The notes below the pieces were generated by a model, which saw nothing but the letters and a program-made list of their open reading frames with translations, was not told where the DNA came from and searched no databases. DNA of 20,000 bases from an uncultured virus (IMG/VR IMGVR_UViG_3300049448_000779) (lineage: Duplodnaviria > Heunggongvirae > Uroviricota > Caudoviricetes): IMG/VR virus record IMGVR_UViG_3300049448_000779. One strand, given 5' to 3'. Position numbers and translations under genes: made by a program. Numbering within the stretch: position 1 is the first letter of the stretch; every line of letters begins with the position of its first letter. Of the stretch, positions 2,790-20,000 are shown piece after piece.

Positions 2790-3428
2790 TCAGTCCAAGC
2801 CGGTTTTGAAGATTGACCGCAGTTCTTGCCTCACCATGAGCCGCAGCTCGTGTCGCATGCCGTCTTCCTGCATGACCTCGCGGATCAGCGAGCGCAGCGA
2901 GATATCCCCTGCCCCTGCCCCGGCCCCTGCTGTAGATGCGGCGCGTGTCGCATTGTGCTTCGGGCTCGCAGTCGTATCGCGCCTCGGGCTCGCAGTCGTA
3001 TCGCGCCTCGGTCGTGCCGAGGGCTGCTGCTGCTGTCGCTGTTCAAGCGTGAACGTGGCCGCCGTTTTCCGTGGCTCTAGCATCTCGCGTTGGATGTCGC
3101 TGGGGGTCGCTACGCGATAACAACCACGTTCCTCTGACGTGAAGTAATGGACTAAATGACGGTTGCCTTGGGTATCGGTTACAGTCCGCTTGCTGGAGTT
3201 CAGCATCGTCGAAATGTAGGCGCGAAGATTGCCGGACTTAAACGTTTCGCCCGCGGCCGCCAGTGCTGCCTCGACCTCCGGGCCTGTCATGGTTCGATCC
3301 TGCATCACCGCAGCGAAACGTTGGGGAACAGTCAAGTTCGTCTTTGACTTGACCAACTCGAGCTTGACCTTGGCCTTCACCTTCGGAGGCTTGACCGTAC
3401 TGCTGGATTTTTTCTTTGGCATGGGCAT
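2790..3428 (-). CDS. Hypothetical protein with probable winged-helix domain and Lys-rich N-terminus
   Basis: 212 aa. 'MTGPEVEAALAAAG...NLRAYISTMLNS...FTSEERGCYRV' fits a wHTH layout, followed by a low-complexity linker. Confidence 0.65.
   Translation of the reverse strand: MPMPKKKSSSTVKPPKVKAKVKLELVKSKTNLTVPQRFAAVMQDRTMTGPEVEAALAAAGETFKSGNLRAYISTMLNSSKRTVTDTQGNRHLVHYFTSEERGCYRVATPSDIQREMLEPRKTAATFTLEQRQQQQPSARPRRDTTASPRRDTTASPKHNATRAASTAGAGAGAGDISLRSLIREVMQEDGMRHELRLMVRQELRSIFKTGLD
2960..3011. repeat. 24-bp perfect tandem repeat (2 copies plus 4 nt) encoding PRRDTTAS
   Basis: tcgggctcgcagtcgtatcgcgcc x2 then tcgg. Confidence 0.95.
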
Positions 3429-4381: not shown

Positions 4382-4577
4382 CGGCCTCCTCTAGCTGGGC
4401 ATAGTATGCGTCGGCAAGATCGAAGTGGCTCGCCCTCTCCTCTTGGTCATTCCAGCGGCGCACGACCTGCTCGAATCCTTGTTTCTCCCAATGGCTGCCC
4501 ATCAAGGTCCAGCCATGGATTGTGAGATAGGCGATCCGGTGCACTTCCTCGACCGTCAGCCCGCACCGACAGCTCAT
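4359..4577 (-). CDS. Small hypothetical protein
   Basis: 72 aa, ATGA overlap with upstream gene at 4574-4577. Confidence 0.7.
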   Translation of the reverse strand: MSCRCGLTVEEVHRIAYLTIHGWTLMGSHWEKQGFEQVVRRWNDQEERASHFDLADAYYAQLEEADGHADPG

Positions 4578-4777
4578 GCCACACCTTGGTTGGCTAGCCT
4601 TGCCAGCTGCTCAAACGTGAGTGGCCGCGAGCATCGACACTTGTGGCCTTCGCAGACGGGGCCGCCGAAGTCGCAACACGTGAAGCCGGCCTCAGCCTCG
4701 CAATGCCAGTAGTGATCATCCGGGTCCGTGTGATCCGGGATGTGCGAGTAGTGGCAGCGCGTCACAGTGCGCTCCAA
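4574..4777 (-). CDS. Small Cys/His-rich (putative zinc-binding) protein
   Basis: 67 aa with 'HC....TCCDFGGPVCEGHKCRC'; overlaps both neighbours. Confidence 0.7.
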   Translation of the reverse strand: MERTVTRCHYSHIPDHTDPDDHYWHCEAEAGFTCCDFGGPVCEGHKCRCSRPLTFEQLARLANQGVA

Positions 4778-5853
4778 AGCCGCGAGAGGTACTGCTGGAT
4801 CGTCGGAGTCGAAAGCGACTTAGCATACGCGAATGCCTCCCGCATGCCTTCAGCCGAGTGCTCGAAGAACTTCGATTCGTGCGTCTCGCCATCCAGGAAG
4901 ATGGTCAGCTTGACCGGCCCAGTCTTCACGCCCCAGTCGAGGTCGACCGTGAAGCCGTTCGACTTATTGATGATGCGCCGACACCAACGACTCTCCTTGC
5001 CAGTGAAGCCAGGGCACCAGCCCTGGTACGTGATCCCGAGGCTTTCATGGTCTTCCGGGTTGAGGCTCAGGTCCTTCAGTTGCTGCGCGAACTCGAGGTA
5101 CAGCGGATCTGTCGCCTTGAAGTCCTCGCGCCACGCCTCGTGCCGGCGGACGCCTTCGGCTCGCGCGACGCGTCGCTTGCCCTCGGCCTCTGACACCCAC
5201 ATGTTCACGAACCGCAGCTCGCTCTCGTGTCGACGGTACGTGCGGATCGACGCCCAGCCGCGCTGCTCGATCGGAACGTCGTCTTCAGCATCCTCCGCCT
5301 CGGGCTCCGGCTCGTAACAACGGACGAGCCCGTCGCTCGAGATCTCCGGCCATTTGTCTTCTGCGTACGCGCCCTCGAACTCGAGCGCGGGCCAGCCCCG
5401 CATCGGATCCGAGAAGTCATAGAAGCGGTACTCGTACGGGCAGGCCCAGAAGCAGCCATCCACGATCAAGATCTGGCTCGCAGCGTCGAACTTGTAGTCG
5501 GCCCAACAGAAGCCCCAGCCCTGTTCTGCTTCCTCGGGCAGGTGGTCGCGCCGTTTGCCGGTGTCCAGTTCGATCACCGTCTGCCCCTGGTAGTCCTCCC
5601 CGCAGATGAGATACGGGTGCCCATTCGGGTGGTCTTCGATGAACGCGTATGGAAAGCAGCTGTAGTTGCGGCGCACGTCCGCGATCGCCTTGTCCGAGCC
5701 GAGCTTGAACACGAGGCCCTGCGTATAGTTCCAGCAGCCCTTCTCGGTCGAGAAGGGCGTAATCACGATCTTGTACTGACCGGAGTCAGATAGGTATTCG
5801 CGCCGGCATTTGAGGTTTGCGTTCTCCGGAGCGAAGAAGTCGAGGTTGGTCAT
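4762..5853 (-). CDS. Hypothetical protein, aromatic/beta-rich
   Basis: Start reassigned to ATG 5853 (MTNLDFF), which forms an ATGA overlap with the upstream stop and has GAGG upstream; 363 aa. Confidence 0.8.
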   Translation of the reverse strand: MTNLDFFAPENANLKCRREYLSDSGQYKIVITPFSTEKGCWNYTQGLVFKLGSDKAIADVRRNYSCFPYAFIEDHPNGHPYLICGEDYQGQTVIELDTGKRRDHLPEEAEQGWGFCWADYKFDAASQILIVDGCFWACPYEYRFYDFSDPMRGWPALEFEGAYAEDKWPEISSDGLVRCYEPEPEAEDAEDDVPIEQRGWASIRTYRRHESELRFVNMWVSEAEGKRRVARAEGVRRHEAWREDFKATDPLYLEFAQQLKDLSLNPEDHESLGITYQGWCPGFTGKESRWCRRIINKSNGFTVDLDWGVKTGPVKLTIFLDGETHESKFFEHSAEGMREAFAYAKSLSTPTIQQYLSRLWSAL

Positions 5854-6215
5854 GCCGCCACCTCTTCTTTCACAATCGCTGGGACCTCGGGAGCCTTGGC
5901 GTCCAGCCACGCCGTGATCGCGTCCTTGGTCAGCTCGAACCCACGTTGGCTAGCCATGGATAGCATGCCGTTGTGAATCCAGTAGGTGTCGTAGCGGTCG
6001 TGCTTGGCCTCCAGCACGTGGCGCGGGACTCCCCGCAGCATCGCGTACGTGAGCAGCAGACACCGGGTGGTGTTGCCCTCCGAACGCTTTTCCTGCCATG
6101 CCTGCCAGCGCTCCATGTGACTGGTCGCTTGGATACGCTTGCCAATCTCTCGGCTCGCAGCCTCTCGTGTCTTGATCTCTAGTTTCAGTTCCGGGTATCT
6201 GTTCTTCTTACTCAT
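5850..6215 (-). CDS. Hypothetical protein (LLLTYAMLRGVP motif), first gene after the leader
   Basis: 121 aa; AGGAG SD 8 nt before ATG, lying in the 3' arm of a hairpin. Confidence 0.85.
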   Translation of the reverse strand: MSKKNRYPELKLEIKTREAASREIGKRIQATSHMERWQAWQEKRSEGNTTRCLLLTYAMLRGVPRHVLEAKHDRYDTYWIHNGMLSMASQRGFELTKDAITAWLDAKAPEVPAIVKEEVAA

Positions 6216-6223
6216 GACTCATT

Positions 6224-6265
6224 CTCCTGTGACTTGGGGTGTTGACAATTACACCGCCACAGGAG
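6224..6265 (-). promoter_or_regulatory. SD-sequestering hairpin (translational attenuator)
   Basis: mRNA CUCCUGUGGC-GGUGU-aauuguca-ACACC-ccaa-GUCACAGGAG: 10-bp outer stem (one G-U) pairing with the SD, plus a 5-bp inner stem. Confidence 0.8.
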
Positions 6266-6317
6266 GGCCACGAGCCCGGGGACTAGAGATCTACCAAAAA
6301 TGTCCGATGATCTGCAT
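6249..6317 (-). CDS. Leader peptide MQIIGHFW-[TAG]-ISSPRARGPPVAV, putative readthrough-dependent arrest peptide
   Basis: ATG 6317, in-frame TAG 6291-6293, RGPP codons 6272-6261, TAA 6249-6251. TAG context identical to that in the Pth2-like gene. Confidence 0.7.
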
Positions 6318-6348
6318 TTCGTCTAACCTAAGGTTCTCTCTACACCTG

Positions 6349-6561
6349 TCAAGTCTCGTACAAGACTTTGGAAGAATCCCGATCGATGACGCGGGCGCGT
6401 AGTTTGTCGTTCTTAGCCACTTTGTCGGCCACTTTCTTGGCTTCAGCCAACGAGGGCCTGGCTTTCTCGAAGACCCAGCGCTCCACCGATTTTAGGGTGA
6501 ATTCCACCACAAATGGGGATAGCCCATCGTACTTACTAGCGGTGCGGTAGTCGTAAGTCAT
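6349..6561 (-). CDS. Small hypothetical protein with MTYDYRTAS N-terminus
   Basis: 70-aa ORF; start region repeated at 11800-11830. Confidence 0.7.
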   Translation of the reverse strand: MTYDYRTASKYDGLSPFVVEFTLKSVERWVFEKARPSLAEAKKVADKVAKNDKLRARVIDRDSSKVLYET

Positions 6562-6596
6562 ATCAAGTGACCAGCATCAATAGATAAATACACCAT

Positions 6597-7805
6597 TCAA
6601 CTTAGTAGGTCGCTGAACCGGGCGCAGGTACTATCTTCAGACCAGGCCCCCAACGTACCGTCATCCCCTGTTGACGCTACATAGGTACGCTTCGGTGGAT
6701 CTTCTTGAATGTTCTCGACGTCAACGGTGATCGTACGACGTTCGCGACGACCGCGCGGGCCGCATACGGCAATAGATCCATCGCTAACCACATAAATTGC
6801 AGTCGCGCATATGCGGCGTGCTAAATCTCGCAGCGCGGGTCTAACCCAATCCTCGACTGTTTCCATTCCGAGTTCCGTGGGCATAGCAATCACGACATCT
6901 CCGTTACCCTTAAGGAAGGCGATGAAACTCGAAGGGACCTCGTGGTCAGGTGTGTTGTGGATCACCTTCTGTGCTGCCTGCAACACGTGTTCAGTGAGAT
7001 CAGCATCTTTGCGCTCCTGCCAGGCCTGGACCTTCAGAACCCCATTGATGACCAGATTGTTTCCATCCACCTGAGCTGTGGGCTTCCATCCCAAAAGCTC
7101 CTGTCGCTTCGTTTCAGCCTTAGATGCCGCGCTATCGAACGCCGGTACCAGCCGCTTACCCAACGCAACGGCGAGGACACTGGGTTCGAGCGGCGGCTTG
7201 ATTCCAGAAAGCCTGTGGATCTCGGCCGCTATATACTCTACTTTAGCGGCCGAGCTGAGTGTGTTGGGAGGATGATGGATTCGCTCGGGCCGCACGGGAC
7301 GAACCCCTTGAGCCACCGCACGGGACAAGACATGCGCCTGCGTAGCGATTACCATCGCCCGTGTCATCGCCGTCTCACCATCGGCACCGTTCTCAATCGC
7401 TGTCCGCAGCGCTCGTATGAACATCAGTACGAAGGTACGCGAGCAACTCTCATCTCCGGCGAGTTGCTTGTAGCGGTCGAAGATTACCTCTTCGGCCTCT
7501 ACAACTTCCACCTCCGCAAGAACGGCTCGAATGCTGGCTGTGGGGAGTATCGGCTCGCCGCCATCTCCCGCTTGGAGCTGACCTTCTCCGAAACACAGAA
7601 AGCGTTTTGAGACGTGCAGCCCATTGGCTAGCTCACCCAGCTCGATGAGCGTCGGCACATCTTCAAAACACTCGAAGTGCTGAAGACTATCACTATTCAT
7701 CTGAATCGCGGCGGCGAAACTGTCACGCGTATGACCCGCCTGCAAATACAAGCCGGTGATCCGTTCAGGCATTGTCAGCCAAGAGATAGGCTTTTCATCA
7801 CTCAT
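6597..7805 (-). CDS. XRE-family HTH domain protein with uncharacterised C-terminal domains
   Basis: Start at ATG 7805 after GGGAGG. 'LQAGHTRDSFAAAIQMNSDSLQHFE...PTLIELGELANGLHVSKRFLCFG' matches the Cro/C1-type HTH pattern. Confidence 0.7.
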   Translation of the reverse strand: MSDEKPISWLTMPERITGLYLQAGHTRDSFAAAIQMNSDSLQHFECFEDVPTLIELGELANGLHVSKRFLCFGEGQLQAGDGGEPILPTASIRAVLAEVEVVEAEEVIFDRYKQLAGDESCSRTFVLMFIRALRTAIENGADGETAMTRAMVIATQAHVLSRAVAQGVRPVRPERIHHPPNTLSSAAKVEYIAAEIHRLSGIKPPLEPSVLAVALGKRLVPAFDSAASKAETKRQELLGWKPTAQVDGNNLVINGVLKVQAWQERKDADLTEHVLQAAQKVIHNTPDHEVPSSFIAFLKGNGDVVIAMPTELGMETVEDWVRPALRDLARRICATAIYVVSDGSIAVCGPRGRRERRTITVDVENIQEDPPKRTYVASTGDDGTLGAWSEDSTCARFSDLLS

Positions 7806-7920
7806 GATGCCTCCCGACTCATGGTGCTGCGAGGTTGATTTGACCACATCGTACGCGGACTATCGCGTCTGGGCAATGGACAATATTCACTGCTTAGATG
7901 ACCTGTTCAGGCCACTAACC

Positions 7921-8268
7921 CTACCAGTCGTCATCTTCGTCTCGGTCATGCCGGCGCCGCTTGCGCTTGCTGGCATAGCGATCAACCTTGGTAGGCTGGG
8001 CATCGGGCCAATCCTGGCGCGCGTCGTACTTGGGGGCACGGTGCTCCTCTTGCTGAGCCGCTGGTTTGTAGCGTTCCGCGACGCGCTCGACCACGGCCTC
8101 TCGAGCTTCTGGCTTGGTTGGCGCGCTCGCCTTCCTGGTGTCTCGGCACTGCTTGCACCGGACTGGGGGTGTGAACTGGCGTTCTGCAAAGAACTTTTGT
8201 TCCCCTGCTGTGAATGAAAACCCGCGCTCACAATCGCGACAGGTCTTCTCCTCATCCTGATACTCCAC
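7921..8268 (-). CDS. Zinc-ribbon domain protein (zf-trcl-like)
   Basis: GTG start after AAGGAG. 'KTCRDCERGFSFTAGEQKFFAERQFTPPVRCKQCR' is the typical pattern of this family. Confidence 0.85.
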   Translation of the reverse strand: MEYQDEEKTCRDCERGFSFTAGEQKFFAERQFTPPVRCKQCRDTRKASAPTKPEAREAVVERVAERYKPAAQQEEHRAPKYDARQDWPDAQPTKVDRYASKRKRRRHDRDEDDDW

Positions 8269-8290
8269 TATCTCTCCTTGTCGTTTCTCG

Positions 8291-8749
8291 TCATGGCCGC
8301 ATTTTTCCAAGGCGGGCCGCTTGTTCACGCAGGTCGGGACGCTGCGAGCTTTGAACTCGCGGGCGTCGAACGTTTGCCTGCATGAAGGGGTTCGTCCCGG
8401 AGACCGGGACCGTAACGGTGTGCACTCTCCACTTTGGAGTCGCGGGCTGAGCTGCCTCGGGCGGCCCCATTCCAGGGGGCTCTGCCCTCGCCTGCCGCAA
8501 GTAGAGTTCCTTCGTGGCCCTGACTAGCAGGGAGAAGATCCTAGTCTTCTCAACGTCGCCTGCGTTATGATCGGGGTGGTACTGATAGACCAACTGCTTG
8601 AATGCCTTGCGTACCCGAGTCTTGAGCTTCTTGAGTAGTTCTTCTCCATCGCGGAAGGGGGCCTTCTCAATTTCAGCCAGCTCTTGATCAGTGACGCCAA
8701 GGGCTTGGTGAGCTAACTGGCGGTCATACGGCGAGAGTGGCAGGGCCAT
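8291..8749 (-). CDS. J-domain (DnaJ-like) protein
   Basis: 'VRKAFKQLVYQYHPDHNAGDVEKTRIF' contains helix II and the HPD motif. Confidence 0.8.
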   Translation of the reverse strand: MALPLSPYDRQLAHQALGVTDQELAEIEKAPFRDGEELLKKLKTRVRKAFKQLVYQYHPDHNAGDVEKTRIFSLLVRATKELYLRQARAEPPGMGPPEAAQPATPKWRVHTVTVPVSGTNPFMQANVRRPRVQSSQRPDLREQAARLGKMRP

Positions 8750-9509: not shown

Positions 9510-10139
9510 TCAGACGAACCGATCCTGTTTGCCCCACATCGCGAGCTGCACCAACGCGCGCTGATACGCATGTTCGCTCGCGACCCTGCCCTTCGGGAAG
9601 CTCAGCGGGAACTTCACGACTAAGCGGCTCGTGCCGCGATCGCTGCCCCAGAGCATCAGCTCGTGCGCCGACCAGGAGATCTCCGGGATCTCGAGTTCGA
9701 ATTCTGTGTCTGGGTTCTCCGCATATGCGACTGTCACGTGCGGCTTGTAGTCGGGAAATTTCTTGCTGTAGTCGATCGATGCCTCCTCCATCGACTCGCA
9801 AATGGACTTGTGGAACGCGTGCAGCTCGGGCGAGCGAACCTTCGCGATGACGGGCACGCCATCGTCCCCTGCCGGGAACGTGGTGATGAGATCCGTCGAA
9901 AGGGAGAACGGCAGCGTCCGAGACGTCACGTGATAGAGCACAGGCAGTAGCTCAGCGATGCGTTCGATCGGAACATCCTTTCCCAGGTACACGACAGTCG
10001 TATGGAGGTTATGGGCCTCGGGGGTGCCTGGCACCTCGACCTCGTTGAGGATACGCGCCGTCTCTTCGGGAACTGGGAACATCAATGCGGCCACAAGGTC
10101 TCCTATTGAGTGCTGAGTAACAGACGATTGGTCATCCAC
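9510..10139 (-). CDS. 2H phosphoesterase (2'-5' RNA ligase / Acb1-like superfamily)
   Basis: Two HxT motifs, 'LHTTVVYLG' and 'YKPHVTVAY', at typical spacing. Confidence 0.85.
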   Translation of the reverse strand: MDDQSSVTQHSIGDLVAALMFPVPEETARILNEVEVPGTPEAHNLHTTVVYLGKDVPIERIAELLPVLYHVTSRTLPFSLSTDLITTFPAGDDGVPVIAKVRSPELHAFHKSICESMEEASIDYSKKFPDYKPHVTVAYAENPDTEFELEIPEISWSAHELMLWGSDRGTSRLVVKFPLSFPKGRVASEHAYQRALVQLAMWGKQDRFV

Positions 10140-19124: not shown

Positions 19125-20000
19125 CTAACGCTGGCCCACAGCGAAAAGCTCCATGATATCCGGTACTTGAAACAGCCAGCCTTCGGGCTCTCCGAGGATG
19201 ACCAATTCATTGATTTTTCCGCGTTTAGTTGCGTCTGCGTTGACCGAGCGGCGCGCCTGAACAGTGCGGATCTGGAAACCTTCGTAAAGCTTCCTAGTCA
19301 CTGGGGAATCGCTGTTGGATTGAACGCAGTAGACTCCACGACACACGAGCTGCCGGCACAGGTCCGCGAGGCGCGCCTGCTCGTCGGGTCCGAACTTGCC
19401 AGCATAGGTGGTAAAGTTCGCGGTACTAGAGATCGGCACGTACGGAGGGTCGAGGTACACGACGTCTCCGGCGCGGGCATCGAGCAGAGCCTCTTCAAAG
19501 TCCCCCGCACGAATCTCTACCCCCTGCAACTCACGACTACAGTCGCGGAGGTTCGCCAAATCGTACAGCCTAGGATTCTCGTAGCGACCAAAGGGAACGT
19601 TGAACTTGCCGGCCTTGTTTACACGGTGGAGGCCGTTGAAAGCCGTCTTGTTCAGGTAGACCATCCGGACCGCCTTCCCAATCACGTCTGGGGGCTCGGA
19701 GGCCCGTACGTCCAAGAAGTGCTCTTTGGTGTTCCAGTCGGGGATGAGAAGTAGCTGTTCCAGGCCATTGATCAGCTCGTCCAGGTGATCCCGAAGCACA
19801 CGGTACAGATTGGTCAACTCGGGATTGAAGTCGTTGATCACGGCTCGAGAGAACCGCCGCTTACCCGCAAATGAGAAGAACGCCGCGCCGCCACCTATGA
19901 AGGGTTCGTAGTAGGTGCCCTGGGTGCATGGGATCAGGCGAGTCAGCTGTGGCAAGAGTTGAGTCTTGCCCCCCGCCCATTTTAGGACAGGCTTGGCCAC
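19125..20000 (-). CDS. dam: DNA adenine methyltransferase, Dam/D12 class
   Basis: 'LKWAGGK', 'YYEPFIGGGA', 'FNVPFG' and catalytic 'DPPY'. GTG start at the window edge. Confidence 0.95.
   Translation of the reverse strand: MAKPVLKWAGGKTQLLPQLTRLIPCTQGTYYEPFIGGGAAFFSFAGKRRFSRAVINDFNPELTNLYRVLRDHLDELINGLEQLLLIPDWNTKEHFLDVRASEPPDVIGKAVRMVYLNKTAFNGLHRVNKAGKFNVPFGRYENPRLYDLANLRDCSRELQGVEIRAGDFEEALLDARAGDVVYLDPPYVPISSTANFTTYAGKFGPDEQARLADLCRQLVCRGVYCVQSNSDSPVTRKLYEGFQIRTVQARRSVNADATKRGKINELVILGEPEGWLFQVPDIMELFAVGQR

What the first reader, a model, noticed from the sequence alone, without database searches (positions are those of the whole stretch)
6224..6317. Leader with amber codon, RGPP arrest-like motif and anti-SD hairpin
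Seen: after the TAG the frame continues ISSPRARGPPVAV-TAA. The Pro-Pro-Val-Ala codons (CUCCUGUGGC) pair with GUCACAGGAG, which contains the SD of the next gene. The UAG is about 26 nt upstream of the stem, probably too far for a terminating ribosome to melt it. Known: SecM (RAGP) and ApdA/ApdP (RAPP) stall ribosomes with related motifs and expose downstream SDs. Inference: only ribosomes that pass the UAG reach RGPP, stall and open the hairpin, giving an attenuator whose input is termination efficiency rather than secretion or a drug.
Basis: partly seen in the sequence, partly recalled or inferred. Interest (0 to 1): 0.9.

Follow-up and report, generated by a model that had tools for sequence, protein, structure and literature searches.

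The report
Amber-gated stalling leader of phage operon
A giant soil phage heads one operon with a short RNA leader in which a tiny translated peptide, an in-frame stop codon, a known ribosome-jamming motif and a hairpin hiding the next gene's start signals are all conserved, which suggests, but does not prove, a switch that reads how well the cell stops at that codon.

Summary
It lies on the minus strand and is conserved. In the window and in 3 of 3 metagenome relatives the 121-aa gene (ATG 6215) is preceded by four elements.

- A promoter-like TTGAC(A/T)-N16-TA(G/C)GTT-N7 ends exactly at an ATG, which suggests a leaderless start.
- An 8-codon ORF, M-[Q/P]-I-[I/V/L]-G-H-[F/L]-W, always ends in TAG.
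- R-G-P-P follows in the same frame.
- A hairpin of -26 to -34 kcal/mol (z -3.6 to -4.7; 0 of 300 shuffles as stable in each) pairs both the SD and the AUG.

In constrained folds, a ribosome at the UAG leaves the SD and AUG paired. A ribosome at RGPP frees them. RGPP is reported as the most robust arrest core, refractory to EF-P (PMC12992588). Substitutions favour third positions of this frame, also beyond the TAG (8 of 13, p=0.035).

TAG is an ordinary stop elsewhere in the window (5 of 24 ORFs). No suppressor tRNA, RNA data or whole genome was available, so read-through and stalling remain inferred.

Best reading (about 0.4): a SecM/ApdA-like arrest attenuator gated by an amber codon. Main rival (about 0.3): the 8-codon ORF is the whole coding unit and RGPP is a by-product of the arm that pairs with the AUG and SD.

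The parts
6347..6352 (-). -35-like hexamer TTGACA; it overlaps the TGA stop (6351..6349) of the upstream 70-aa ORF
   Evidence: TTGAC(A/T) is invariant in 4 of 4 sequences, while the 16-nt spacer varies in sequence but not in length. The full motif occurs once in the 20-kb window.
6325..6330 (-). -10-like hexamer TAGGTT (TANNNT type), 16 nt after the -35 and 7 nt before the ATG
   Evidence: It reads TAGGTT in 3 sequences and TACGTT in L003. The 7-nt distance to the ATG is constant in 4 of 4, with unrelated sequence in between. The TACGTT form argues against reading it as an SD. The transcript start on the A of the ATG is inferred, not measured.
6291..6317 (-). 8-codon mini-ORF MQIIGHFW plus TAG, probably leaderless
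   Evidence: The peptide M-[QP]-I-[IVL]-G-H-[FL]-W-TAG is found in 4 of 4 sequences. Ile is coded ATC/ATA/ATC/ATT and His CAT/CAC. DNA identity is 78-89%, against 58-87% for the first 150 nt of the gene.
6273..6290 (-). Spacer after the TAG, in frame ISSPRA, single-stranded up to 6276 in the predicted fold
   Evidence: Relatives read IFYPLA, IFYPHA and ILRC (12 nt in L003). L001 and L002 differ here at TTC/TTT and TAT/TAC (both synonymous) and CTC/CAT.
6261..6272 (-). CGT GGC CCT CCT = R-G-P-P in the mini-ORF frame. CGT pairs with the gene's AUG, and CCTCC is the anti-SD.
   Evidence: In frame in 4 of 4 sequences. The variants CGC (L002) and CCC (L001, and one contig of run X9) are synonymous. 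RGPP is an arrest core per PMC12992588.
6249..6251 (-). TAA ending the frame-0 extension, at the edge of the apical loop
   Evidence: L002 has the same stop. L003 ends at a TGA in its apical loop. L001 is shifted by one extra C after the Pro codons, and the L001-like contig of run X9 lacks that C.
6210..6275 (-). Hairpin of about 25 pairs. The 5' arm is 6275..6251, the loop 6250..6243 and the 3' arm 6242..6210. It sequesters the SD and the AUG.
   Evidence: Window: -34.3 kcal/mol, z -4.43. Relatives: -31.7, -31.1 and -26.4 kcal/mol, z -4.5, -4.7 and -3.64. In each case 0 of 300 shuffles were as stable. L003 keeps the fold with a different apical stem (GGTTGCAG/CTGCAACC).
6224..6227 (-). Shine-Dalgarno GGAG of the 121-aa gene, 8 nt before the ATG
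   Evidence: All 4 nt are paired in the window, L002 and L003, and 3 of 4 in L001.
5850..6215 (-). Regulated gene: a 121-aa all-helical protein of no known family. Its TGA overlaps the ATG of the next gene (ATGA).
   Evidence: 13 homologues with E<=0.001 among 15 candidates, at 64-100% identity. No Pfam or PHROG family. AlphaFold pLDDT 85, with no PDB fold match at E<=0.001.
4762..5853 (-). Second operon gene (363 aa from ATG 5853), overlapping the first by ATGA (coupling is inferred from the overlap), followed by small ORFs of 67, 72 and 141 aa
   Evidence: L002 shows the same order, 118, 353, 67 and 141 aa. No Pfam family. Homologues at 49-52% identity over residues 6-347 occur in 7 Sorangium genomes.

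Best explanation
This is the 5' leader of a giant-phage operon. It works as a translational attenuator of the SecM/ApdA kind, with an amber codon as its gate.

1. A sigma-70-type promoter starts the mRNA on the A of ATG 6317, so ribosomes load on a leaderless 8-codon ORF (inferred from conserved spacing).
2. By default they terminate at UAG 6293..6291. A hairpin of about 25 bp (-34 kcal/mol) keeps the SD and AUG of the 121-aa gene paired, so the operon is not translated (predicted by folding, conserved).
3. The few ribosomes that pass the UAG continue in frame for 7 codons. Passage could come from near-cognate read-through, a suppressor tRNA, or weak RF1 action, perhaps aided by the conserved nascent peptide ending in Trp.
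4. These ribosomes arrest with R-G-P in the P site and the second Pro codon in the A site (inferred from published RGPP behaviour).
5. The arrested ribosome sits on the 5' arm of the hairpin. The Pro-Pro codons are the anti-SD and the Arg codon pairs with the AUG. This frees the SD and AUG for repeated initiation on the 121-aa gene and the genes coupled to it.
6. The nascent chain has only 18-19 residues, so no pulling force can release it. One rare read-through event would therefore be latched into a long-lived ON state.

The 8 conserved N-terminal residues would be the tunnel-contacting part of the arrest peptide.
For: - The architecture is conserved in the window and in 3 of 3 related loci. 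These loci have unrelated upstream genes in L002 and L003, and lack the 70-aa ORF in L001.
- The promoter hexamers and the N16 and N7 spacings are invariant while the sequence between them is free.
- The mini-ORF peptide is conserved through synonymous and conservative changes.
- ATG, TAG and RGPP share one frame in 4 of 4 sequences, although the TAG-RGPP spacer is 18 nt in three and 12 nt in L003.
- Minimal changes by codon position in this frame are 4/5/13 over codons 1-19 (13 of 22 at position 3, p=0.012). Beyond the TAG they are 1/4/8 (8 of 13, p=0.035). Synonymous:non-synonymous counts beyond the TAG are 6:4 in this frame, against 0:8 and 4:6 in the other two.
- Both substitutions inside the RGPP codons (CGT>CGC, CCT>CCC) are silent in this frame yet break a U-A pair.
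- The hairpins fold at -26.4 to -34.3 kcal/mol, with 0 of 300 shuffles as stable in each of 4, and the SD and AUG are paired in all.
- Footprint-constrained folding gives P(unpaired SD+AUG) as follows, in the order window/L001/L002/L003. Free: 0.002/0.174/0.038/0.013. Ribosome at the UAG: 0.002/0.174/0.136/0.014. Ribosome at RGPP: 0.497/0.604/0.231/0.568.
- Literature: RGPP gives the most robust arrest among RAPP-like cores, is refractory to EF-P, and is the most excluded tetrapeptide in many phyla. It lies near the C-terminus of small upstream ORFs (PMC12992588: abstract and sections 8, 10, 13-15 read).
- A C-terminal segment of 20 residues of ApdA is required and sufficient for arrest, and the SecM stall opens an SD-sequestering stem-loop (PMC7897499, passages).
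- Huge phages encode RF1, RF2 and RRF, and some reassign UAG (PMC7162821, passages).
Against: - There is no direct evidence of read-through, stalling, the transcript start or expression. No RNA run holds the stretch.
- TAG behaves as a normal stop in this window. It ends 5 of 24 ORFs and does not interrupt the long ORFs.
- No tRNA gene is found in the window or in L001-L003, and the rest of the genome could not be searched.
- The RGPP nucleotides are also what RNA pairing needs: CGUGG pairs with UCAUG and CCUCC with GGAG. Their conservation therefore does not by itself show coding.
- Only 4 sequences are available, plus one partial contig of depth 2.2. The codon-position statistics are marginal (p=0.035, or 0.066 if L001's second Pro codon is read as in the run X9 contig) and ignore shared ancestry.
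- L001 carries one extra C after the Pro codons, so the extension's stop is not conserved. This is irrelevant if the ribosome arrests at PP.
- The published work says the RAPP-like core alone is insufficient and needs a suitable N-terminal neighbour. Whether this 15-residue neighbour works is unknown.
- Known RAPP/RGPP arrest peptides are mostly secretory or membrane proteins with a release mechanism, which is absent here.
Confidence: 0.4

Rival explanations
1. The 8-codon leaderless ORF is the whole coding unit, and RGPP is a by-product of the anti-AUG plus anti-SD sequence. The mini-ORF acts in cis. For example, a peptide-dependent pause at Trp-UAG might protect the 5' end or set the ribosome load. 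The hairpin is opened or removed by something else: RNase III cleavage of the 25-bp stem, a helicase, or a phage RNA or protein.
For: - The mini-ORF is the best conserved piece (78-89% identity) and always ends in TAG.
- TAG is an ordinary stop here.
- CGUGG/UCAUG and CCUCC/GGAG pairing explains why the block is invariant.
- L002 lost the U of CGU and instead pairs an upstream CAUG with the start region. This shows that selection acts on the pairing.
- A stem of about 25 pairs with small internal loops is the size of known RNase III substrates (own knowledge).
Against: - It gives no reason for the constant frame between ATG, TAG and RGPP across a 6-nt length change.
- It gives no reason for silent but pair-breaking substitutions in the RGPP codons.
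- It names no opener that these data support.
- A ribosome at the UAG does not reach the stem.
- The GG/UC pairs of the lower stem could have covaried, as the apical stem did in L003, but are invariant.
Confidence: 0.3
2. Termination-reinitiation relay. After release at the UAG, the ribosome restarts 13-19 nt downstream at the GUG (6271..6269; AUG in L002) in the base of the hairpin. It translates through both arms in the +1 frame and stops at the UGA that overlaps the gene's AUG (ATGA, 6215..6212), handing over to the 121-aa gene.
For: - A GUG or AUG start in that frame is present in 3 of 4 sequences: the window, L002 (AUG) and L003. In L001 the GUG is there, but the extra C puts it out of that frame. 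The L001-like run X9 contig, which lacks the C, would restore it.
- The frame runs to the UGA of ATGA in the window and L002. It also does so in L001 counted from the UGG after the C run. In L003 it ends at a UAG 8 nt past the AUG (and direct reading).
- The distance from the conserved UGG to the AUG is 44, 44, 44 and 47 nt, the same modulo 3.
Against: - The start codon has no SD and lies inside a stable stem.
- A start codon there is an automatic by-product of complementarity to CAUG.
- The peptide of this frame is not conserved in L003.
- The changes in the block are non-synonymous in this frame (0 synonymous: 8 non-synonymous beyond the TAG).
- It does not explain why the mini-ORF peptide is conserved.
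Confidence: 0.1
3. Translational bypass of the T4 gene 60 kind. Peptidyl-tRNA-Trp takes off at UGG next to the UAG and lands on the conserved UGG in CCUGUGG (6259..6257), skipping 34 nt, and then reads to the UGA of ATGA.
For: - A take-off codon is followed directly by UAG, the nascent peptide is conserved, and a matching UGG downstream is conserved in 4 of 4 sequences.
- The comparison with gene 60 is from my own knowledge.
Against: - No other gene 60 signals were tested or seen.
- The landing codon is part of the conserved stem anyway.
- This reading leaves the in-frame RGPP unexplained.
Confidence: 0.03
4. There is no regulatory function. The ORF, the motif and the hairpin are a chance constellation in an intergenic spacer.
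For: - RGPP-like tetrapeptides occur by chance in six-frame translation. The motif set gives 6 matches in the window, 2 of them RGPP.
Against: - All elements are conserved in 3 of 3 relatives whose flanking genes are only 59-78% identical or unrelated.
- 0 of 300 shuffles were as stable in each of the 4 hairpins.
Confidence: 0.03

Closest known systems
RAPP-like arrest peptides: SecM (RAGP), ApdA/ApdP/CruR (RAPP), and the RAPP/RGPP peptides of Streptomyces lividans (PMC12992588, PMC7897499)
   Same: An R-G-P-P core lies a few codons before the end of a small upstream reading frame that runs in the same direction as the regulated gene. As in SecM, the stall site lies on the arm of a stem-loop that hides the next gene's SD.
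   Different: The frame carrying RGPP is cut off from its only start codon by a conserved UAG. The whole peptide would have 22 residues, with no signal or membrane segment, so no force-dependent release is possible. The start is probably leaderless. The setting is a phage. For ApcA, ApdA and ApdP the authors found no SD-sequestering hairpin, whereas here the hairpin is the clearest feature.
Leaderless polycysteine short ORFs of mycobacteria (Canestrari et al., 10.1101/834739; abstract read)
   Same: A leaderless short ORF is the first cistron. According to the abstract, a ribosome stalled in it blocks an mRNA structure that sequesters the next gene's ribosome-binding site.
   Different: Here there is no run of a sensed codon. 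The 8-codon ORF ends 15 nt or more before the structure, so a stall inside it cannot open the structure. Only the continuation past the UAG can.
PepNL of E. coli (PMC11890864; abstract and section 11 read)
   Same: A short leader peptide whose regulatory outcome depends on the competition between release factor and read-through at its stop codon.
   Different: PepNL arrests at UGA and read-through by Trp-tRNA cancels the arrest. Here read-through of UAG would cause an arrest further on. No sequence likeness was tested.
AMD1 C-terminal tail in mammals (PMC13025110; only the start of the abstract seen in a search listing)
   Same: Ribosomes that read through a stop codon run into an arrest sequence downstream.
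   Different: It is eukaryotic and lies at the 3' end of a main ORF. I recall it as limiting translation of that ORF rather than exposing a ribosome-binding site.
prfB (RF2) +1 frameshift autoregulation, and the erm/cat leader peptides (own knowledge, not checked here)
   Same: prfB shows gene expression set by how efficiently one stop codon is recognised. The erm and cat leaders show a stalled ribosome in a short leader ORF unmasking a sequestered SD.
   Different: The downstream gene is not a release factor (no family). No slippery site fits (UGG UAG). No antibiotic-type inducer is implied.
Stop-codon recoding with suppressor tRNAs in phages (10.1101/2021.08.26.457843 and PMC10879173, search listing only; PMC7162821, passages)
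   Same: It is a precedent for phages changing how UAG is read during infection and using that for timing.
   Different: Those phages carry in-frame TAG inside late genes. In this window TAG is used only as a stop, and no suppressor tRNA was found in the DNA available.

Membership tests
RAPP-like arrest peptides (SecM/ApdA/ApdP/CruR class) | C-terminal core R-A-P-P, R-G-P-P or R-A-G-P | tested here: met
   CGT GGC CCT CCT at 6272..6261. R-G-P-P is found in 4 of 4 sequences.
RAPP-like arrest peptides (SecM/ApdA/ApdP/CruR class) | The core lies in a translated small ORF with its own start, upstream of a co-directional gene | tested here: not met
   It is co-directional and 3 codons before a stop in the window and L002. 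However, the only in-frame start (ATG 6317) is separated from the core by a TAG in 4 of 4 sequences. No ATG, GTG or TTG lies between the TAG and RGPP in this frame.
RAPP-like arrest peptides (SecM/ApdA/ApdP/CruR class) | The adjacent N-terminal region supports the arrest (about 20 residues in ApdA) | not testable with these tools
   The 15 residues before R16 are partly conserved (MxIxGHLW, I, P, A). Whether they support arrest needs translation assays. The requirement is stated in PMC12992588 and PMC7897499.
RAPP-like arrest peptides (SecM/ApdA/ApdP/CruR class) | Localisation signal or other means of force-dependent release | tested here: not met
   The read-through product has at most 22 residues in the window. 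At the arrest point the 18-residue chain would lie wholly in the exit tunnel (inference).
RAPP-like arrest peptides (SecM/ApdA/ApdP/CruR class) | Arrest shown with Pro in the P site and Pro in the A site | not testable with these tools
   This needs toeprinting or peptidyl-tRNA detection.
SecM-type SD unmasking | The stalled ribosome overlaps the arm of a stem-loop that sequesters the downstream SD | tested here: met
   This is a computational result only. P(unpaired SD+AUG) rises from 0.002-0.17 to 0.23-0.60 when the RGPP footprint is imposed, in 4 of 4 sequences. The hairpins have z -3.6 to -4.7.
Leaderless short-ORF attenuators (mycobacterial type) | The mRNA begins with the AUG of the short ORF | tested here: inconclusive
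   The conserved -35/N16/-10/N7 spacing ends on the ATG in 4 of 4 sequences, and no conserved SD is present. There are no transcript data.
Leaderless short-ORF attenuators (mycobacterial type) | A run of codons for the sensed amino acid inside the short ORF | tested here: not met
   In MQIIGHFW no residue repeats beyond the two Ile, and there is a single Trp.
Stop-codon arrest leader peptides (TnaC, PepNL, MsrDL type) | Arrest at the stop codon that controls a terminator, a Rho site or the SD directly downstream | tested here: inconclusive
   The peptide ending in Trp-UAG is conserved. No terminator-like site lies in the leader. A ribosome at the UAG does not free the SD. Arrest itself is not testable here.
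Programmed stop-codon read-through signals | A stop codon with a stimulatory 3' context or a structure a few nucleotides downstream | tested here: inconclusive
   UAG-AU is invariant in 4 of 4 sequences. The main hairpin begins 15, 15, 12 and 9 nt after the UAG (window, L001, L002, L003); in L002 a 4-pair outer extension starts at 5 nt. No known signal was matched. Rfam gave no hit.
TAG-recoded phage genes | In-frame TAG inside protein genes, and a suppressor tRNA in the genome | tested here: not met
   In the 20-kb window TAG ends 5 of 24 ORFs and does not interrupt the long ORFs. No tRNA genes were found. The rest of the genome was not available.

The most novel reading that the evidence does not exclude
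The leader is a sensor of how the infected cell decodes UAG, that is, of the balance between RF1 activity and amber-suppressing tRNA. A rare ribosome that passes the amber codon is trapped by an EF-P-refractory RGPP arrest on the anti-SD arm. This latches the mRNA into a long-lived ON state for the operon. It would be a phage device that converts termination efficiency, or the phage's own manipulation of termination, into a timing or state signal.
Probability: 0.3. Interest if true: 0.9.

Novelty: new variant of a known kind. Interest (0 to 1): 0.75.

Why it matters
Arrest peptides are known to report secretion, metals, amino acids or drugs. None in the literature I searched uses a stop codon as the gate to the arrest site in bacteria or phages (searches listed none).

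If the mechanism holds, it adds termination efficiency as an input to nascent-chain regulation. It would also show how a very rare decoding event can be amplified by a stable stall. It would give giant phages, which are known to carry release factors and sometimes to reassign UAG, a way to read or time such changes.

The element is only about 140 nt long and can be tested directly in a reconstituted translation system.

Even on the conservative reading it is a new conserved leader that is not in Rfam. It combines a leaderless mini-ORF with a very stable SD/AUG-sequestering hairpin.

Tried and rejected
**Searches for more copies**
- Megablast of 5000-8000 against phage records: no match.
- tblastn of the 121-aa protein against phage records: no match.
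- Viral contigs gave no relative by protein and no match by DNA pattern.
- The genome contigs pattern scans gave 1 and 7 matches, all inside unrelated sequence without the ATG context, and I judged them chance.
The contigs of the other homologous proteins could not be fetched.

**Whole genome**
- None is held. The record of L002 is not held either. Suppressor tRNAs, release-factor genes and TAG-interrupted late genes could therefore not be sought.

**Expression**
- No RNA holder is listed among the sequencing runs.
- Laying 4 runs gave only short DNA contigs. Parts of the stretch had no cover. One L001-like contig (run X9, depth 2.2) covered 6050..6296.

**Known RNA families**
- None matched at E<=1 on the leader, nor at gathering score on the window.

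**Repeated-motif ideas**
- CACAGGAG is not enriched: 15 matches against 21 expected.
- The promoter plus ATG motif is unique in the window.
- No repeat family includes the leader.

**A second promoter-like site inside the hairpin**
- TTGTCA-N16-GAGAAT at 6248..6221 is not conserved in L001-L003. The window's total of promoter-like sites (4) is below the shuffle mean (5.6).

**TAG recoding of the window**
- Rejected.

**Function of the regulated genes**
- No Pfam or PHROG family.
- No fold match for the 121-aa model.
- The protein atlas gave no usable lead.
- Bacterial homologues of the 363-aa protein carry neither the 121-aa gene (tblastn over all 36 loci; best E 1.6) nor, in the 12 upstream regions I read, the leader.

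**Mechanisms considered and set aside**
- Frameshifting at UGG-UAG: the tRNA cannot re-pair in either shifted frame.
- A thermosensor or a standby site: the stem is far too stable at -26 to -34 kcal/mol.
- An intrinsic terminator: there is no U tract, and one search lists none there.

**Alignment caveat**
- The MAFFT/RNAalifold consensus misaligns the 3' arm of L003. I therefore relied on single-sequence folds.
Full report
**What is in the window.**
The feature lies on the minus strand, in the 133-nt gap between a 70-aa ORF (6349..6561) and a 121-aa ORF (5850..6215). Read 5' to 3' it holds these elements:
- TTGACA (6352..6347), then 16 nt, then TAGGTT (6330..6325), then 7 nt;
- ATG 6317..6315, opening MQIIGHFW, closed by TAG 6293..6291;
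- in the same frame, ISSPRARGPPVAV and TAA 6251..6249, with RGPP coded by CGT GGC CCT CCT at 6272..6261;
- the gene's GGAG (6227..6224) and ATG (6215..6213).

It is only the middle of a longer hairpin, 6275..6210, of about 25 pairs. The top of this hairpin is GGTGT/ACACC. Its lower stem (GCTCGTGGC with GTCATGAGT) also pairs the start codon.

**Setting.**
- The window looks like phage DNA. It carries ThyX, a Dam-type methylase, a dNMP kinase, a J-domain protein and a 2'-5' RNA-ligase/Acb1-like protein, and most other ORFs have no family.
- Earlier notes of this scan call the same genome a giant soil phage with a CRISPR array. I did not test that.
- The 121-aa gene overlaps the next gene (363 aa) by ATGA, and small ORFs follow. 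L002 has the same order. The leader therefore heads an operon.
- The 121-aa protein is all-helical (pLDDT 85). It has no family, no fold match at E<=0.001 and no atlas lead.

**Relatives.**
- The 121-aa protein has 13 homologues with E<=0.001 among 15 candidates, at 64-100% identity, on contigs up to 433,843 bp.
- All 3 carry the same leader.
- Their upstream genes differ. L001 has the homologue of the window's 416-aa protein (59% identity) directly before the promoter, without the 70-aa ORF. L002 and L003 have unrelated genes. The leader therefore travels with the 121-aa gene.

**Promoter and leaderless start (inferred).**
- TTGAC(A/T), a 16-nt spacer, TA(G/C)GTT and 7 nt up to the ATG are found in 4 of 4 sequences. 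The spacer and the 7 nt vary freely.
- The TACGTT form in L003 fits a TANNNT -10 element but not an SD, and there is no other conserved SD.
- This places the transcript start on or next to the A of the ATG.
- No transcript data exist for this DNA.

**The mini-ORF is under peptide-level constraint.**
- The four peptides are MQIIGHFW, MPIIGHLW, MPIVGHLW and MQILGHLW, and all four ORFs end in TAG.
- Ile3 is coded ATC/ATA/ATC/ATT and His6 CAT/CAC. Positions 4 and 7 change only among I/V/L and F/L.
- The 27 nt are 78-89% identical between pairs. The first 150 nt of the gene are 58-87% identical. Against L003 the figures are 81-85% and 58-62%.

**The hairpin is real and hides both start signals.**
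- The segment from the TAG to 9 nt into the gene folds at -34.3, -31.7, -31.1 and -26.4 kcal/mol (window, L001, L002, L003).
- The z-scores are -4.43, -4.5, -4.7 and -3.64, and 0 of 300 dinucleotide shuffles were as stable in each case.
- GGAG is fully paired in 3 sequences and 3 of its 4 nt are paired in L001. The AUG is fully paired in all 4.
- L003 keeps the fold with a different apical stem (GGTTGCAG/CTGCAACC).
- L002 pairs the start region with an upstream CAUG instead of CGU.
- There is no U tract, so this is not an intrinsic terminator.
- A stem this stable cannot open spontaneously (inference from the predicted free energies). Something must unwind or cut it.

**Where a ribosome would have to be.**
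I folded each leader with a footprint (-12 to +14 around the first P-site base) forced single-stranded. Mean P(unpaired) for SD+AUG was:

| State | Window | L001 | L002 | L003 |
|---|---|---|---|---|
| Free | 0.002 | 0.174 | 0.038 | 0.013 |
| Ribosome with UAG in the A site | 0.002 | 0.174 | 0.136 | 0.014 |
| Ribosome with the first Pro codon in the P site | 0.497 | 0.604 | 0.231 | 0.568 |

Termination at the UAG is too far upstream, and a ribosome at RGPP opens the structure.

**Is the frame read beyond the TAG?**

For:
- ATG, TAG and RGPP are in one frame in 4 of 4 sequences, although the spacer is 18 nt in three and 12 nt in L003.
- Minimal changes by codon position in this frame are 4/5/13 over codons 1-19 (p=0.012 for 13 of 22 at position 3). 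They are 1/4/8 for codons 10-19 (p=0.035).
- Beyond the TAG, synonymous:non-synonymous counts are 6:4 in this frame, against 0:8 and 4:6 in the other two frames.
- The only substitutions inside the four RGPP codons, CGT>CGC (L002) and CCT>CCC (L001), are silent, yet each removes a U-A pair.
- An L001-like contig from run X9 shows the same CCT>CCC without L001's extra C. It therefore keeps RGPPVAV-stop. This is a single contig at depth 2.2 and may hold errors.

Against:
- Only 4 sequences share ancestry, and the p-values are marginal (0.066 if L001's second Pro codon is read as in the X9 contig).
- The spacer peptide is only loosely conserved (ISSPRA, IFYPLA, IFYPHA, ILRC).
- The RGPP nucleotides are exactly what is needed to pair with UCAUG and GGAG.
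- TAG is a normal stop in this window. It ends 5 of 24 ORFs, against TGA 15 and TAA 4, and it does not interrupt long ORFs.
- No tRNA gene is present in the window or the loci, and the rest of the genome could not be searched.

**What is known about the motif.**
- Fujiwara et al. (PMC12992588; abstract and sections 8, 10, 13, 14 and 15 read) make these points:
  - RGPP generally supports the most robust arrest among RAPP-like cores in the ApcA, ApdA, ApdP and SecM contexts.
  - RGPP is not relieved by EF-P.
  - RGPP is the most excluded tetrapeptide in many phyla.
  - RGPP tends to sit near the C-terminus of small upstream ORFs before genes of many functions.
  - The core alone is insufficient and needs an adjacent N-terminal region, though many sequences are tolerated.
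- Sakiyama et al. (PMC7897499, passages) report that the C-terminal 20 residues of ApdA suffice for arrest. They restate that the SecM stall disrupts the stem-loop hiding the secA SD. For ApcA, ApdA and ApdP they predicted no such hairpin.
- In the present leader the chain at the arrest point would have 18-19 residues. The conserved MxIxGHLW would then be the tunnel-contacting neighbour of the core, which would explain its conservation (inference).

**Related precedents.**
- Leaderless short ORFs in mycobacteria attenuate downstream genes through ribosomes that block RBS-sequestering structures (10.1101/834739, abstract).
- PepNL arrests at its UGA, and read-through by Trp-tRNA cancels the arrest (PMC11890864, abstract and section 11).
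- Impaired release factors alter leader-peptide attenuation in E. coli (PMC5373646, passages).
- Huge phages encode RF1, RF2 and RRF, and some reassign UAG (PMC7162821, passages).
- Three full-text searches listed no bacterial or phage leader in which a stop codon gates access to an arrest motif. The library does not hold most subscription papers.

**Mechanism I commit to (confidence about 0.4).**
The element is an arrest-type translational attenuator gated by an amber codon, as set out under the best explanation.
- Shown here: presence, conservation, frame relations, fold stability, pairing of the SD and AUG, and the effect of the footprint in silico.
- Inferred: the leaderless start, passage of the UAG, arrest at RGPP, and the latch-like persistence of the arrest.
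- Not known: the signal that raises read-through. Candidates are a phage or host suppressor tRNA, lowered RF1 activity, or slow termination caused by the nascent peptide.

**Rivals.**
- The mini-ORF is the whole coding unit, something else opens the stem, and RGPP is a by-product of pairing (about 0.3).
- A termination-reinitiation relay runs through the GUG at 6271..6269 to the UGA of ATGA (about 0.1).
- A gene 60-like bypass from UGG to UGG (about 0.03).
- Chance (about 0.03).

**Classification.**
- The element works like a SecM/ApdA-type arrest regulator and like the leaderless short-ORF attenuators.
- It fails membership features of both. The RGPP frame has no uninterrupted ORF, there is no localisation signal, and there is no sensed codon run.
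- It is not in Rfam, and this scan has no look-alike on other DNA.
- I class it as a new variant of a known kind.

Noticed in passing
window 4762..5853 (-); loci L012-L018: The 363-aa second gene of the operon has homologues at 49-52% identity over residues 6-347 in 7 Sorangium genomes. Its first 150 residues or so recur in many other bacterial phyla (36 loci in all). tblastn over all 36 loci found no 121-aa gene, and the 12 upstream regions I read show no leader. This may hint at a myxobacterial host or at gene exchange.
   Followed up: partly
window 9510..10139 (-): A 209-aa protein matches the 2'-5' RNA ligase superfamily (E 4e-13) and the anti-CBASS Acb1 family (PF23474, E 1.5e-9). It is a possible cyclic-nucleotide-degrading counter-defence enzyme.
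   Followed up: no
window 7921..8749 (-): Two overlapping ORFs encode a treble-clef zinc-finger protein (PF13451, E 3e-14) and a J-domain protein with the HPD motif (PF00226, E 9e-7). The latter is a phage-encoded DnaJ-like co-chaperone.
   Followed up: no
window 2947..3000: A 24-nt direct repeat lies inside the 212-aa ORF (2790..3428): two tandem units (83% alike, family D15), or three spaced 21-nt copies at 2956, 2980 and 5296 (family D1). It gives a duplicated ASPRRDTT peptide, next to a short Gly-Ala run.
   Followed up: no
window 6221..6248 (-): A second promoter-like site, TTGTCA-N16-GAGAAT, lies inside the hairpin loop and 3' arm. It would start a transcript near ATG 6215. It is not conserved in L001-L003, and the window as a whole has no excess of such sites.
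   Followed up: yes
window 6285..6292 (-): Directly after the TAG lies the palindrome AGATCT, which contains a GATC site (TAGATCT in the window, L001 and L002; TAGATTC in L003). The window also encodes a Dam-type methylase (19125..20000). No link was tested.
   Followed up: no
window 4574..4777 (-): A 67-aa ORF of the same operon is rich in Cys and His (CHYSH..HYWHCE..CCDFGGPVCEGHKCRC), is conserved in position in L002, and looks like a small metal-binding protein.
   Followed up: no
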